Shown: one piece after another, positions 746 through 4,820 of the stretch
How positions within the stretch are numbered: the first letter of the stretch is position 1
Layout of the letters: each line of letters opens with the position of its first letter
NCBI GenBank assembly: GCA_021778845.1
Contig: JAJYBU010000006.1
Span: forward strand, 15,677-79,676
DNA from: Acidobacteriota bacterium
Lineage (GTDB): Bacteria; Acidobacteriota; Terriglobia; Terriglobales; Acidobacteriaceae
DNA: 64,000 bases
Direction of reading: 5' to 3'
The notes under the pieces: model-generated
The model's input: the letters and a program-made list of their open reading frames with translations, nothing else
Database searches by the model: none
Told to the model about the DNA's origin: nothing
Made by a program: the position numbers and the translations under genes

Positions 746-2602
746 TCAGCTCCGGGTGGCTACGCGGAGGCTGAGCTCGCGGAGTTGCTGGTCGCTGACG
801 GTGGTGGGCGCGTCGACCATGAGGTCGATGGCTTTGGCGGTCTTGGGGAAGGCGATGACCTCGCGGAGAGAGGATGCGCCGGCGAGGATCATGACGATGC
901 GGTCGAGACCGAGGGCGATGCCGCCGTGCGGCGGGGTGCCGTACTCGAGTGCGTCGAGGAAGAAGCCGAAGCGGGCCTTGGCTTCCTCGTCGGACATGCC
1001 GAGCGAGCGGAAGATTTCGGACTGCACATCCTTGCGGTGAATACGGATGGAGCCGGAGCCGAGCTCGGTGCCGTTGAGGACGATGTCGTAGGCGAGGGCG
1101 CGAACGGAGCCCTTGTCGTTGACCAGAGCGCCGGACTTGATGTCCTCCTCGTGCGGCGAGGTGAAGGGATGATGCGCGGCGTCCCAGTTCTTGGTCTCCT
1201 CGTTCCACTCGTACATGGGGAAGTCGGTGACCCAGAGGAACTTGAAGTCGGCGGCGGTGTGGGTCTGCTCGAAGAGCTTGTGCTTGTCGGCGTATTTCTT
1301 TGCGAGTTCGAGGCGGAGTGCGCCGACGCGCTTGTAGATCCACTGCGGATCGTAGTTCCAGAGAGCTGGTGTGCCGGGCTTGGGGGTGACGACGACGGCG
1401 AGGTCTTCTGGTATGAGCGCAGCGTTGTGGAATCGTTGAAGTTCTTCGGAGAGCTTTGTGGCGATGGACTCGGCGAGCGGGGTGAAGGCCTCGTTGGTGC
1501 GGAGGCGCGCGAGGTCGAGGAGGTCGAGGCCGGAGTCGCCGAAGAAGGCGCGGATCTCGCTGAGGAGAGCCTTGCGGGCGGTGCCGCTGAGTTCGCCGAC
1601 GCGGGGGATGGTGAAGCCGAGGACGGGAAGAGTGGGGTCGATCTTGAGGGTGCTGCGGAGTTCAGCGGTGAGCGTGGCGGAGAGGTCGACGATGGCGGGG
1701 AGGCGCATGTCGGGCTTGTCGATGCCGTAGCGCGTGATGGCCTGGTCGTAGGTCATCTGGATGAAGGGCTCGGTGCCGAGGTCGATGCCCGCGGCGGAGA
1801 AGGCGGCGCGGAGGAAGCCTTCGGCGGTGGCAAAGATGGTGGACATCTGCGGGAAGGAGATTTCGAGGTCGATCTGGGTGAACTCGGGCTGGCGGTCAGC
1901 GCGGAGGTCTTCGTCGCGGAAGCAGCGGGCGATCTGGAAGTAGCGGTCGAAGCCGGAGATCATGAGGATCTGCTTGAAGATCTGCGGGGACTGCGGGAGA
2001 GCGTAGAAGTGGCCGGGATGGACGCGGCTGGGGACGAGGTAGTCGCGCGCGCCTTCCGGGGTGCTGCGGGTCATGAAGGGGGTTTCGATCTCGAGGAAGC
2101 CCTGGGAGACGAGGTAGTTGCGGATGGCCATGGCGACGCGGCTGCGCAGGGCGAAGTTGTGCTGCATCTCGGCGCGGCGGAGGTCGATGTAGCGATACTG
2201 GAGACGCACTTCCTCGTTGGCGATGGCGTCTTCGGCGGGCGAGAAGGGAGGTGTCTTCGCGTCGTTGAGGAGCAGGAGCGAGTGGGCGACGAGCTCGACT
2301 TCGCCGGTGGGCATGTTGGGATTGACGAGTCCTTCACCACGCTTGCGCAGGATGCCGGTGACGGCGATGACGTACTCGGAGCGCGCGGCTTCGGCCTTGG
2401 CGTGCGCTTCAGGGGAGACTTCCTTGTCGAGGACGACTTGCGTGATGCCGGAGCGGTCGCGGAGGTCGAGGAAGATGAGGTTGCCGTGGTCGCGGCGGCG
2501 GTTGACCCAGCCCATGAGGGTGATGGTTTCGCCGGAGTGGGTGCTGCGCAGGTCGCCGCACAGATGCGTGCGCTGGAGGGTGCCTAGGAAGTCGAGAGTC
2601 AC
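746..2602 (-). CDS. aspS: Aspartyl-tRNA synthetase (probably non-discriminating type)
   Basis: RTHLCG, RRRDHGNLIFLDLRDRSG, STPEGARDYLVPSR, ALPQSPQIFKQ, FRDEDLRADRQPEFTQID, GTPPHGGIALGLDR; the His in RDHG is typical of ND-AspRS. Confidence 0.98.
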   Translation of the reverse strand: MTLDFLGTLQRTHLCGDLRSTHSGETITLMGWVNRRRDHGNLIFLDLRDRSGITQVVLDKEVSPEAHAKAEAARSEYVIAVTGILRKRGEGLVNPNMPTGEVELVAHSLLLLNDAKTPPFSPAEDAIANEEVRLQYRYIDLRRAEMQHNFALRSRVAMAIRNYLVSQGFLEIETPFMTRSTPEGARDYLVPSRVHPGHFYALPQSPQIFKQILMISGFDRYFQIARCFRDEDLRADRQPEFTQIDLEISFPQMSTIFATAEGFLRAAFSAAGIDLGTEPFIQMTYDQAITRYGIDKPDMRLPAIVDLSATLTAELRSTLKIDPTLPVLGFTIPRVGELSGTARKALLSEIRAFFGDSGLDLLDLARLRTNEAFTPLAESIATKLSEELQRFHNAALIPEDLAVVVTPKPGTPALWNYDPQWIYKRVGALRLELAKKYADKHKLFEQTHTAADFKFLWVTDFPMYEWNEETKNWDAAHHPFTSPHEEDIKSGALVNDKGSVRALAYDIVLNGTELGSGSIRIHRKDVQSEIFRSLGMSDEEAKARFGFFLDALEYGTPPHGGIALGLDRIVMILAGASSLREVIAFPKTAKAIDLMVDAPTTVSDQQLRELSLRVATRS

Positions 2603-2609
2603 AATCCTT

Positions 2610-4280
2610 CTATTGTACGAAGTTTGGAGGCTGACTCCGAATCCCGGTGAGAGCTTCGGCGAGTTTTGCGCGCGGAATTTTGACTTGCTCGCCGGTGGCG
2701 AAGGTTTTTACGGTGGCGATGTTGGTGGCAACTTCATCTTCGCCGAGGAGGATGATGTGGCGGGCCAGGGTGTCGGCGATGTCGAAGGACTTGCGGAGTT
2801 TGAAGGCGCCGTCGCCTACTTCTACCTTGAGGCCGGCGGTGCGGAGTTCGCGGGCCAGGGCGAGGGCGGCGGGGTTCTGGGCTGGGGCCAGGGGAGCGAT
2901 GTAGGCGTCCAGTTTGGGCGGGGCGGTCGAGGTGTTGTCGGCTTCGGCCTGTGCCTGAAGGGTAAGGATGAGGCGGTCTTCGCCGATGGCGAAGCCGATG
3001 CCGGGGGCGCGCGGGCCGCCCAGCATCTCGGAGAGGCCGTCGTAGCGGCCGCCGCCGAGGAGGGCGTTCTGGGTGCCGAGACCGGTGGTGACGGTGAACT
3101 CGAAGGTGGTGCGGGTGTAGTAGTCGAGGCCGCGGACGAGGCGCGGGTTGAGGTGGTAGGGGATACCGCAGGCGTCGAGGGCGGCGAGGACCTGGTCGAA
3201 GTGGGCTTTGGATTCGGGGCCGAGGTAGTCGGCGATTTTGGGCAGGGCGTTGATGAGGTCCTGATCGGCTTCGTCCTTGCTGTCGAGGACGCGGAGCGGG
3301 TTGGTGTCGGCGCGGCGCTGGTTGTCGGGGCAGAGCTGGTGCTTGATGGGTTGCAGGGCTTGGCGGAGGGCGGCGTTGTAGCGGACGCGGTCCTCGGAGC
3401 TGCCGACGGAGTTGAGTTCGAGACGCCAGTCGCGGATGCCTAGCTCGGTGAGGAGGCTGGCGAGCATCTCGAGGATCTCGGCGTCGCGGAGAGGGGATTC
3501 CGCGCCGGAGGATTGCGGTCCGATGACTTCGGCGCCGATCTGCCAGAACTGGCGGTAGCGTCCGCGCTGAGGACGCTCGCGGCGGAACTGCGGGCCGATG
3601 TAGTAGAGCTTTTGCAGGTTGCCGGTGTTGCCGAGCTGGTGCTCGATGTAGGCGCGGACGACTCCGGCGGTGGATTCCGGGCGGAGGGTGAGGGACTGGG
3701 ACGAGCGGTTGAACTCTCCAAAAGCATATTCGACCACGAGATCGGGACCGGGATGCTCCTCTTGTTTGTTAGGCACCGACGAAGCTACGACGATACGTTT
3801 TTTTGCGGGTGGATTGTGACCGAGGTGTCGCTGAGATTCTTGCACCTTCCGGATTGTTTCAACGTCCAACCGTCCGTGGAAAGCTACGAGTTCGTATGTG
3901 CCAGACCTGTAGCGCACTTCTGCATCAAATGTGCCGTCAGATTGTTGCTTTGCGCTGCTAATACGGCCACTCGAGCGAGTCCACCAGTCGTAAAGCATCG
4001 CTTTATCAAAGCGCTCACCATCATCCCAGGTGAACATTTCCTTGCTGACGATGTCGGTCTCTTCGCCGACGCCGCGAGCGAAGAGTTCGGTGGTTTCGAA
4101 GATCGGGGTGCGGATTTCGCCGAAGCCGTAGCGGGCGAAGAGGGCGCGGGCGGTGGCCTCGACGTGGTTCCAGAGCGGGGTCTGGTCAGGGAGCAGGTCG
4201 CGGGTGCCGCGGACGGCCTTGAGGGTGGGGCGAGCCGGGGTTTTGGGGGACTTCGGCGCGGGGTTCTTGCTTTCGGTCAT
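2610..4280 (-). CDS. hisS: Histidyl-tRNA synthetase with an internal insertion of about 105 aa
   Basis: VRGTRD, RTPIFE, DIVSKEMF, LRPESTAG, FRRERPQRGRYRQF, LVRGLDYY, GGGRYDGL, C-terminal anticodon domain; 556 aa versus the usual ~420-450. Confidence 0.97.
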   Translation of the reverse strand: MTESKNPAPKSPKTPARPTLKAVRGTRDLLPDQTPLWNHVEATARALFARYGFGEIRTPIFETTELFARGVGEETDIVSKEMFTWDDGERFDKAMLYDWWTRSSGRISSAKQQSDGTFDAEVRYRSGTYELVAFHGRLDVETIRKVQESQRHLGHNPPAKKRIVVASSVPNKQEEHPGPDLVVEYAFGEFNRSSQSLTLRPESTAGVVRAYIEHQLGNTGNLQKLYYIGPQFRRERPQRGRYRQFWQIGAEVIGPQSSGAESPLRDAEILEMLASLLTELGIRDWRLELNSVGSSEDRVRYNAALRQALQPIKHQLCPDNQRRADTNPLRVLDSKDEADQDLINALPKIADYLGPESKAHFDQVLAALDACGIPYHLNPRLVRGLDYYTRTTFEFTVTTGLGTQNALLGGGRYDGLSEMLGGPRAPGIGFAIGEDRLILTLQAQAEADNTSTAPPKLDAYIAPLAPAQNPAALALARELRTAGLKVEVGDGAFKLRKSFDIADTLARHIILLGEDEVATNIATVKTFATGEQVKIPRAKLAEALTGIRSQPPNFVQ

Positions 4281-4346
4281 AGAGATACAGTCTATCGTCC
4301 TGCACGAACGGCCAGAGGCTTCGCGTGGGGTGGAAAGGACGGTATC

Positions 4347-4630
4347 CCCACCCCCCCTCCCCCCCCGACTTTTTCTCGTAAAGTATTCAGGCGGATGAGG
4401 TTAAGTCTGTTTTGCCTGTAAGGTATTCTATCCAGGATGGTTACGGGTAAGATATTGCTTGTAAAGGGGTTAGCGGCCGCGTGAGGCGGGGGTGGGGCCT
4501 GGCTTTGATCCCTACTTCTATTGTAGTGAGTTGATGGGGGGTACTATGCCAGGTTTTGAAAATATAAATCGCCTTTGTTTATAGGGGGTTTGGCGATTTC
4601 ATGGTCCGCGAGGGGCTTGACGGCAATTTC
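4347..4630. repeat. Dispersed non-coding element of about 280 bp, copy 1
   Basis: Aligns by eye with 32548-32825: poly-C, three TAA-N19-TTA boxes, TTTGATCCCTACTTCTATTGTAGTGAG, AAATATAAATCGCCTTTGTTTATAGGGGGTTT, GGGGCTTGAC. Confidence 0.92.
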
Positions 4631-4766
4631 GGTGGCGACCGATCCGTAGCCGAAGCGCTCGAGTAGTACGGTCCATTATGGCAGGGGACAAGAAGTAGCC
4701 CAGGAACGTTGGGTCGCCCAAGCTTAGGAGCGTGCGGCACGCACCGGGATTGAAGCTGAAGGGGCA

Positions 4767-4807
4767 AACAGCAAGGGCACGGAGATGGACTCCGTGCCCT
4801 TGCTGTT
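4767..4807 (-). terminator. Intrinsic terminator hairpin after the TonB-dependent receptor
   Basis: AACAGCAAGGGCACGGAG-atgga-CTCCGTGCCCTTGCTGTT, perfect 18-bp stem 14 nt past the stop. Confidence 0.8.
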
Positions 4808-4820
4808 GCGAACTGCACCG

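What the first reader, a model, noticed from the sequence alone, without database searches (positions are those of the whole stretch)
3705..4022. Foreign in-frame domain of about 105 codons inserted in histidyl-tRNA synthetase
Seen: between KEMFTWD and SQSLTLRPE the ORF carries about 105 extra residues with no stop. Two 60-nt lines counted inside the insert are 50-52% GC, versus 60% and 73% in two flanking lines, and its codons often end in A/T whereas the rest of hisS ends in C. Established: in HisRS the KEMY/F...LRPE segment is a short beta-hairpin after motif 1, normally with only a few residues in its loop. The insert lacks intein termini (no N-terminal C/S, no His-Asn followed by C/S/T). 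Inference: its pattern (FDAEVRY..TYELVAFHG.LDVETIRKV...AKKRIVVASS) resembles an Mrr-like PD-(D/E)xK restriction-endonuclease fold lacking the ExK catalytic residues. This suggests a recently captured domain displayed on an essential synthetase, possibly a variable cassette site used as a defence decoy/sensor or a trace of a homing-type element.
Basis: partly seen in the sequence, partly recalled or inferred. Interest (0 to 1): 0.8.

Follow-up and report, generated by a model that had tools for sequence, protein, structure and literature searches.

The report
Swappable nuclease-fold cassette inside HisRS
The essential histidyl-tRNA synthetase gene of this acidobacterium carries, in frame in one loop, a 107-codon domain predicted to fold like a NucS-type nuclease but missing its catalytic residues; related bacteria hold about a hundred different versions in the same loop, a few still intact, which likely reflects a selfish homing-type element that stays in the protein instead of splicing out.

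Summary
Real. Window 3699-4019 (minus strand, 107 codons) replaces a conserved 9-codon loop in the genome's only detected hisS. Contigs of three public runs from one study span both junctions unchanged. The domain models confidently as a PD-(D/E)xK fold, best match NucS/EndoMS (Z 8.7); this copy keeps only the Asp. Homologous cassettes fill the same loop in 24 of 372 hisS-bearing Acidobacteriaceae genomes (21 genera). Of 103 distinct cassettes, 7 keep D-E-K. Cassette and host histories are decoupled: a hisS 93% identical to this one carries a 24%-identical intact nuclease, its closest kin are empty, and a dead-looking cassette jumped between hosts 70% identical (AU p 1.7e-10). Cassettes are under purifying selection (omega 0.19). 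One free-standing relative lies in a prophage-like island. It is not an intein, intron or repeat-bounded element, and low GC does not show recent capture. Best reading (0.5): a phage-derived, non-splicing homing-type nuclease, mostly decayed. The spread of dead copies is unexplained, which keeps a conflict/defence role open (0.3). This scan noted similar inserts before in other synthetases (alaS, leuS, thrS), not hisS; no paper found.

The parts
2610..4280 (-). hisS, histidyl-tRNA synthetase, 556 aa with the cassette; motif 2, motif 3 and the histidine-binding loops read intact
   Evidence: single hisS match in the 89%-complete genome; motif names recalled
3699..4019 (-). cassette: 107 codons (G88-S194) replacing the 9-codon loop of empty alleles; predicted PD-(D/E)xK (NucS_C-like) domain
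   Evidence: boundaries; fold
4020..4043 (-). 5' host flank K80-D87 (first strand of the hairpin after motif 1); likely recombination arm
   Evidence: role inferred
3675..3698 (-). 3' host flank Q195-E202 (QSLTLRPE); likely recombination arm
   Evidence: role inferred
3981..3983 (-). W100, the only residue invariant in all 103 cassettes; also present in the free-standing prophage relative
3924..3926 (-). D119, the retained motif-II aspartate of the nuclease fold
3876..3884 (-). A133-F134-H135, standing where intact cassettes and NucS have E-x-K
746..2602 (-). downstream neighbour, aspS by its sequence (context only; name by eye, not scanned)

Best explanation
The insert is one allele of a mobile nuclease-fold cassette that replaces the tip loop of the HisRS hairpin after motif 1 and likely stays in the mature enzyme as a separately folded domain; it likely began as a small phage NucS-type endonuclease and would spread like a homing element, and this copy has lost the catalytic Glu and Lys and is predicted to be inactive. 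Steps. (1) Shown: same site, one family, empty, intact and degenerate alleles side by side, cassette history decoupled from hisS history. (2) Shown by model: both ends of the cassette form short strands; inferred: they extend the host hairpin, so no splicing is needed. (3) Inferred: alleles are exchanged by recombination in the short conserved flanks. (4) Inferred, untested: intact versions cut the empty hisS allele and are copied in during repair; decayed versions persist because they are immune to cutting, cheaper than an active nuclease and cannot be partly deleted without unfolding an essential enzyme; empty alleles return by recombination.
For: Site in a conserved, single-copy essential gene. 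Patchy spread: 24 of 372 hisS-bearing genomes, 21 of 137 genera. On a 132-row hisS tree without the cassette, 43 carriers need 36 changes, at least 21 forced by starred branches. The three allele classes of the homing cycle as described in PMC3229294 (passages) are all present: 7 of 103 distinct cassettes keep D+E+K, and these residues persist between copies only 54-58% identical. One tight clade of hisS alleles (support 99) holds this dead cassette, two intact ones (L231, L002), two other dead ones and two empty alleles; host DNA identity to this gene 89-93%, cassette identity 24-40%. Small PD-(D/E)xK proteins can be homing endonucleases (I-Ssp6803I; PMC3384342 passages). A free-standing 146-aa relative with the full motif sits in a prophage-like island beside a methyltransferase-like gene and an endolysin, groups with one cassette lineage (95/98), and has mostly viral Atlas look-alikes including a NucS_C cluster. 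No cassette among 103 is a truncated fold (109-143 aa counted with 3 host residues).
Against: The clearest recent long jump is by a dead-looking cassette (L194/L197: 88% nt, hosts 70% nt; AU p 1.7e-10), and the largest lineage (68 rows, support 88) lacks E+K throughout yet spans many genera; its own nuclease cannot have driven that. No near-identical intact cassette was found in distant hosts. Intact cassettes are net acidic (-1 to -6) and have no separate DNA-binding part, which is odd for an enzyme reading a long DNA site. The cassette replaces 9 conserved codons rather than inserting at one point, and no long co-converted flank was seen. Cleavage of anything is untested. Phage origin rests on one prophage gene (30% over 67 aa to the nearest cassette) and Atlas leads; direct phage searches found nothing.
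Confidence: 0.5

Rival explanations
1. The loop is a conflict hotspot and the cassette is a host-beneficial swappable module. It would mask a conserved HisRS surface that a phage or competitor protein targets, or act as a decoy; intact versions would be nucleases that HisRS carries to tRNA-His or other RNA (abortive infection). Allele diversity would be kept by frequency-dependent selection, as with target-recognition domains of methyltransferases.
For: Dead-looking cassettes move between genera and differ completely among near-identical hosts. All codons of a 41-row dead lineage are constrained (omega 0.187; no weight at omega 1 or above). The replaced loop is itself strongly conserved (R 74 of 74, A and S 72 of 74). 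Acidic intact cassettes fit a tethered enzyme whose host supplies the substrate. Swapping through flanks of 8-117 bp is documented for Type III mod TRDs (PMC3467074 passages).
Against: No site under positive selection. No partner, immunity or regulator gene travels with carriers within about 1.5 kb. Only 6.5% of genomes carry one. No antagonist of this loop is known to me (recall).
Confidence: 0.3
2. A tolerated passenger: one or a few chance captures of a phage nuclease gene into a permissive loop, then neutral shuffling by ordinary recombination at conserved hisS flanks; selection only keeps the domain folded.
For: The lineage tolerates in-frame insertions: 9 genomes carry unrelated 24-49-residue versions of the same loop, and MetRS of this genus has several variable loops. 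Omega 0.19 with conserved core residues is compatible with a folding constraint. GC3 drifts to about 0.5.
Against: Catalytic D, E and K are kept across 40-45% divergence in several lineages. At least 21 changes on the host tree and cross-genus jumps are many for a neutral allele. Empty alleles keep one conserved loop, so losses too need precise allele replacement.
Confidence: 0.17
3. The insert is spliced out at the RNA or protein level, or is an assembly artefact.
For: The last cassette residue is followed by Gln-Ser, which resembles an intein junction variant (recall).
Against: Gln-Ser is host sequence, present in empty alleles. No Hint family; 99 of 103 cassettes start with Gly; the fold is PD-(D/E)xK. 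No Rfam match near a gathering score. Selection acts on the in-frame protein. Junction-spanning contigs and over 100 independent homologues.
Confidence: 0.03

Closest known systems
NucS/EndoMS C-terminal nuclease domain (Pfam PF01939; PDB 2vld, 5gke) and small phage NucS_C-like proteins
   Same: Fold (Z 8.7, rmsd 2.8 over 92 residues); profile match E 0.014 with E-x-K in register; intact cassettes give weak NucS_C hits (E 3e-4 and 1.6e-3).
   Different: No N-terminal NucS domain; below the Pfam cut-off; embedded in a synthetase; 95 of 103 versions lack E+K.
Homing endonucleases in inteins and group I introns, including the PD-(D/E)xK enzyme I-Ssp6803I (PMC3384342, passages; PMC3229294, passages)
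   Same: Conserved essential target gene; patchy, incongruent spread; empty, intact and degenerate alleles; small PD-(D/E)xK fold.
   Different: No splicing element; replaces 9 codons instead of inserting at one point; dead lineages dominate and still travel; acidic rather than basic; cleavage untested.
ShiLan domain and lone LAGLIDADG insert in actinophage methylases (PMC11855218; first of six parts and three passages read)
   Same: A translated, apparently unspliced insert with a disjunct distribution.
   Different: ShiLan hides an out-of-frame HNH gene in a non-essential phage gene and folds poorly in frame. Here the nuclease fold is the in-frame product, other frames are closed (open in at most 3 of 103), and the host gene is essential. 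The paper does not mention tRNA synthetases.
Target-recognition-domain swapping in Type III methyltransferases (PMC3467074, passages)
   Same: A domain exchanged between conserved short flanks, with tree incongruence between domain and scaffold.
   Different: There the swapped domain is essential to function and always present; here most alleles are empty and the domain is a nuclease fold on a housekeeping enzyme.
Earlier notes of this scan on nuclease inserts in alaS, leuS and thrS (e1-3256488, e1-3869933, e1-3071068 and others; unchecked AI notes)
   Same: In-frame nuclease-fold cassettes in surface loops of tRNA synthetases.
   Different: Other enzymes, mostly DUF559/Vsr or RAYT domains, often bounded by hairpin repeats; the hisS cassette has no terminal repeats and is NucS-like.

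Membership tests
PD-(D/E)xK superfamily | alpha/beta restriction-endonuclease core fold | tested here: met
   Model pLDDT 89.8; of 48161 chains the two with Z 8 or more are NucS (8.7) and AF1548 (8.2), and most of the top 50 rows are PD-(D/E)xK nucleases. Foldseek best E 0.017 only.
PD-(D/E)xK superfamily | catalytic D...(D/E)xK in this copy | tested here: not met
   Motif columns read K/D/A/H/K here; D+E+K kept in 7 of 103 relatives.
NucS/EndoMS | NucS_C score above the Pfam cut-off | tested here: not met
   No hit for this copy; best relative 21.2 bits against a cut-off of 24.
NucS/EndoMS | N-terminal DNA-binding/dimerisation domain (recalled) | tested here: not met
   The 107-aa cassette aligns only to residues 126-233 of 2vld_B.
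Mrr-like endonucleases | Mrr_cat profile match or uniquely best structural match | tested here: inconclusive
   No Mrr Pfam hit in 23 cassettes scanned; AF1548 (recalled as Mrr-like) is tied with NucS by Z.
Intein | Hint fold, N-terminal Cys/Ser, C-terminal His-Asn/Gln before Cys/Ser/Thr | tested here: not met
Group I/II intron | structured intron RNA | tested here: not met
   Two weak unrelated Rfam matches, far below gathering scores, in 3500-4800; selection on the in-frame protein.
Homing endonuclease element | sits in a conserved site of an essential gene with disjunct, incongruent distribution | tested here: met
Homing endonuclease element | empty, intact and degenerate alleles coexist | tested here: met
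Homing endonuclease element | cleaves the empty allele and is copied in | not testable with these tools
   Needs biochemistry.
Homing endonuclease element | recent spread of intact copies with co-converted flanks | tested here: inconclusive
   No long flank tract; no near-identical intact cassette in distant hosts, but only 7 intact ones were sampled.
ShiLan-type insert | hidden out-of-frame endonuclease ORF | tested here: not met
   Other frames stop-free in 0 to 3 of 103 cassettes.
IS/MITE/REP-bounded in-frame cassette | terminal inverted repeats or target duplication | tested here: not met
   None at the ends in 5 of 5 loci examined.
Anti-phage nuclease system | match to known defence proteins or a dedicated partner gene | tested here: inconclusive
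   Best PADLOC E 0.003 in 1 of 10 members; no shared neighbour within about 1.5 kb.
Anti-phage nuclease system | protects against phage | not testable with these tools
   Needs infection assays.

The most novel reading that the evidence does not exclude
HisRS of Acidobacteriaceae is a display platform for a polymorphic conflict module: phage-derived nuclease domains, swapped between genera through a few conserved codons, either shield a conserved synthetase surface from an antagonist (dead forms) or ride the synthetase to tRNA-His as a triggered toxin (intact forms). That would be a defence system built into an essential translation enzyme, with no separate gene.
Probability: 0.25. Interest if true: 0.87.

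Novelty: new variant of a known kind. Interest (0 to 1): 0.64.

Why it matters
Homing elements in essential genes are thought to need splicing to be tolerated. Here a nuclease-fold domain appears to be worn permanently on an essential enzyme, in about 1 in 15 genomes of a major soil family, with empty, intact and dead alleles all in hand among close relatives. That makes the homing cycle without an intein or intron directly testable with a few genes. If dead cassettes spread for a benefit of their own, it points to an unknown antagonist of HisRS. It also shows that low GC in an in-frame insert need not mean recent acquisition, and it marks a HisRS loop that accepts domains of 105-140 residues.

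Tried and rejected
Terminal repeats or target duplications: none. Hidden ORF in another frame: none. Structured RNA: none. Other copies in the own genome: best non-hisS E 0.7. Free-standing homologues in protein libraries: 11 hits among 1.84 billion representatives, 10 HisRS pieces and 1 cassette-only fragment; 18 of 18 longer hits are HisRS; near-length searches gave only HisRS fragments. Outside the family: in a phylum draw of 401 genomes the three weak hits from other families were a dehydrogenase-like frame, a deformylase-like frame and a short broken frame (names by eye), so not found in those searched. hisS in viral contigs: 5 pattern matches, none hisS. Phage records: no match; viral contigs with the prophage protein: none; BFVD fold search: only weak endonuclease-like rows, best E 0.004. 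PHROGs and PADLOC: nothing convincing. Flank co-conversion: no GC3 dip and only slightly more differences in the nearest codons. Positive selection: none (own grid codon model on a fixed tree after the IQ-TREE mixtures failed). The cassette grouping L003+L201+L216 was not rejected on the host tree (p 0.26), and the 8-row test (p 2.8e-8) is inflated by empty alleles nested in that group. L041 has a frameshift and was disregarded in pair comparisons; 4 short rows were dropped from the tree and 1. The full-length monomer model (pLDDT 73) folds the cassette but not the hairpin region with confidence, so it does not place the domain. RNA: the one RNA run laid held only an empty relative, so expression is untested. 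tRNA-His of the genome looks ordinary. Literature: searches gave 0 papers; two searches gave 1 each (a Candida intein review, listing only; a tRNA paper, passages read, unrelated). No supplements were read; subscription journals are not covered.

Full report
Observation. The ORF at 2610-4280 (minus strand) is HisRS, matched by Pfam in two stretches with a gap over the insert, and is the only hisS match in the 89%-complete genome. Close relatives read W-x-D, nine residues, Q-S-L-T-L-R-P-E; this gene has 107 codons (3699-4019) in place of those nine. GC3 is 0.51 inside against 0.85 downstream, the strongest such dip among 2643 long coding-like ORFs. Contigs from runs X1, X2 and X3 span both junctions with no difference, and X5 from a second study holds most of the insert identically.

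Fold. With 23 homologues as alignment the domain models at pLDDT 89.8. Among 48161 solved chains only NucS (Z 8.7, rmsd 2.8, 92 residues) and AF1548 (Z 8.2) reach Z 8, followed by McrC, CdiA-CT and DdmD; Foldseek also ranks NucS first but at E 0.017. A sequence profile of 24 cassettes independently finds NucS as best PDB match (E 0.014) with its E-x-K aligned to the column where this copy has A-F-H. This copy keeps the aspartate only, so it is predicted to be inactive. Both ends of the cassette form short strands in the model, which would extend the host hairpin; the full-length monomer model does not resolve that region.

Distribution. 3 of the 22 same-genus loci read carry a cassette, all different. 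A junction pattern over GTDB genomes gave 22 loci, all with a complete cassette; 21 record titles name Acidobacteriaceae, Terriglobales or Acidobacteriota, and one 5.3-kb contig filed under another family has a hisS 95% identical to an acidobacterial one. In a draw of 401 family genomes, 372 have a hisS match; 15 hit the first profile and follow-up of 30 genomes with two matches added 9 with other linkers: 24 of 372, in 21 of 137 genera. Genomes with a single low-scoring match were not opened, so this is a floor. The pooled set is 103 distinct cassettes, biased to the DGERF linker by the patterns. The two linker groups are homologous (hhalign probability 93%). All library hits are HisRS. In a phylum draw of 401 genomes hisS cassettes were found only in this family.

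Intact and dead alleles. 7 of 103 keep D+E+K and one has N+E+K. Intact pairs keep these residues at 54-58% overall identity. They lie in several parts of the cassette tree (5 changes), while one lineage of 68 rows is degenerate throughout.

Decoupled histories. The hisS tree without the cassette largely follows the genus codes, and carriers sit among empty genus-mates: 36 changes for 43 carriers, at least 21 forced by starred branches, no more clustered than shuffled labels (the sample was enriched for genus-mates of carriers). The hisS backbone of this gene is 93% identical in DNA to L231, whose cassette is intact and 24% identical; 91% to L039 (38%); 89% to L002 (intact, 28%) and L196 (40%); empty alleles L004 and L021 belong to the same clade. 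Conversely L194 and L197 share a dead-looking cassette at 88% DNA identity in hosts 70% identical; forcing them together on the host tree is rejected (p 1.7e-10), as is L032+L033 (p 0.017), while L003+L201+L216 is not (p 0.26). Flanks diverge within a few codons of the junctions, so exchange tracts are short, as in methyltransferase TRD swapping through 8-117 bp (PMC3467074, passages). Because the empty loop is conserved in 74 alleles, losses too must be allele replacements.

Selection and composition. Pairwise dN/dS in cassettes is 0.06-0.42 where dS is not saturated. For 41 dead cassettes omega is 0.187 against 0.048 for the host part of 37 of them, with no weight at omega 1 or above. Cassette GC3 is below host GC3 in 94 of 95 cases, and parsimony on 25 triplets gives an equilibrium GC3 of 0.47 (0.44-0.51) against 0.65 (0.61-0.70) for 22 host triplets (parsimony pulls both toward 0.5). 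The cassettes are not drifting toward host usage, so low GC does not date them.

Origin. One free-standing relative was found (G138, E 2.6e-5): 146 aa with the E..W helix, D, E-x-K and Q-L. It lies in an island next to truB with endolysin, ParB, HTH and tape-measure-like genes, directly behind a methyltransferase-like gene. It shares a second tryptophan with the non-DGERF cassettes and groups with them (95/98). Atlas look-alikes are mostly viral and include a NucS_C cluster (TM 0.84; the intact cassette L087 gave similar leads). One sequence cannot root the tree or count captures.

Mechanism. I favour a homing-type life cycle without splicing (0.5): essential conserved target, scattered distribution, catalytic residues kept in a minority, and the empty/intact/dead triad of the homing model (PMC3229294, passages); small PD-(D/E)xK homing enzymes exist (PMC3384342, passages). 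Against it: dead cassettes travel, intact ones are acidic and show no recent sweep, and the event is a 9-codon replacement. A conflict module on HisRS (0.3) explains the travel of dead copies but lacks positive selection, a partner gene or a library match. A neutral passenger in an insertion-tolerant lineage (0.17) fits the other loop extensions but not the kept catalytic residues. Nuclease activity, expression and dimer geometry are untested.

Novelty. It works like a homing element but is not an intein, intron, ShiLan-type or repeat-bounded element. Six targeted literature searches found no description; the closest print case is ShiLan (PMC11855218; part 1 of 6 and passages). Earlier notes of this scan report similar inserts in alaS, leuS, thrS and valS and none in hisS; those notes are unchecked and are not used as support. 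Tallies of the 401-genome draw include two unpublished genomes (G065, G042); no other claim rests on them.

Noticed in passing
G000:C67:9893-12373 (-), locus L283; relatives L284-L287: The methionyl-tRNA synthetase of this genus (named by its motifs, not scanned) has several loops that vary freely in length and sequence among 5 genomes aligned, including the anticodon-binding helices.
   Followed up: partly
L071, L081, L082, L083, L086, L091, L097, L108, L153: Nine family genomes carry unrelated 24-49-residue versions of the same HisRS loop; several are insertions inside the conserved empty loop rather than cassette remnants.
   Followed up: partly
L297:652-14400 (G138:C77): A compact prophage-like island of about 14 kb next to truB with endolysin, ParB, HTH replication-like, methyltransferase-like and nuclease genes and several genes without any PHROG match.
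   Followed up: partly
G000:C76:152823-155957 (+), C23:60939-65948 (-), C77:9667-12045 (+): Low-complexity, repeat-like in-frame insertions in recG-, Lhr- and dnaX-like genes (names by eye).
   Followed up: no
L043 (contig DASRWO010000046.1): A 5.3-kb contig filed under Deferrimicrobiaceae holds a hisS 95% identical to an acidobacterial one; probably mis-binned.
   Followed up: no
P0022: A cassette-bearing HisRS with an additional C-terminal extension of about 100 residues (647 aa).
   Followed up: no
window 4281-4820: About 540 nt of lower-GC intergenic DNA upstream of hisS with long C and G runs; no Rfam match near a gathering score.
   Followed up: no
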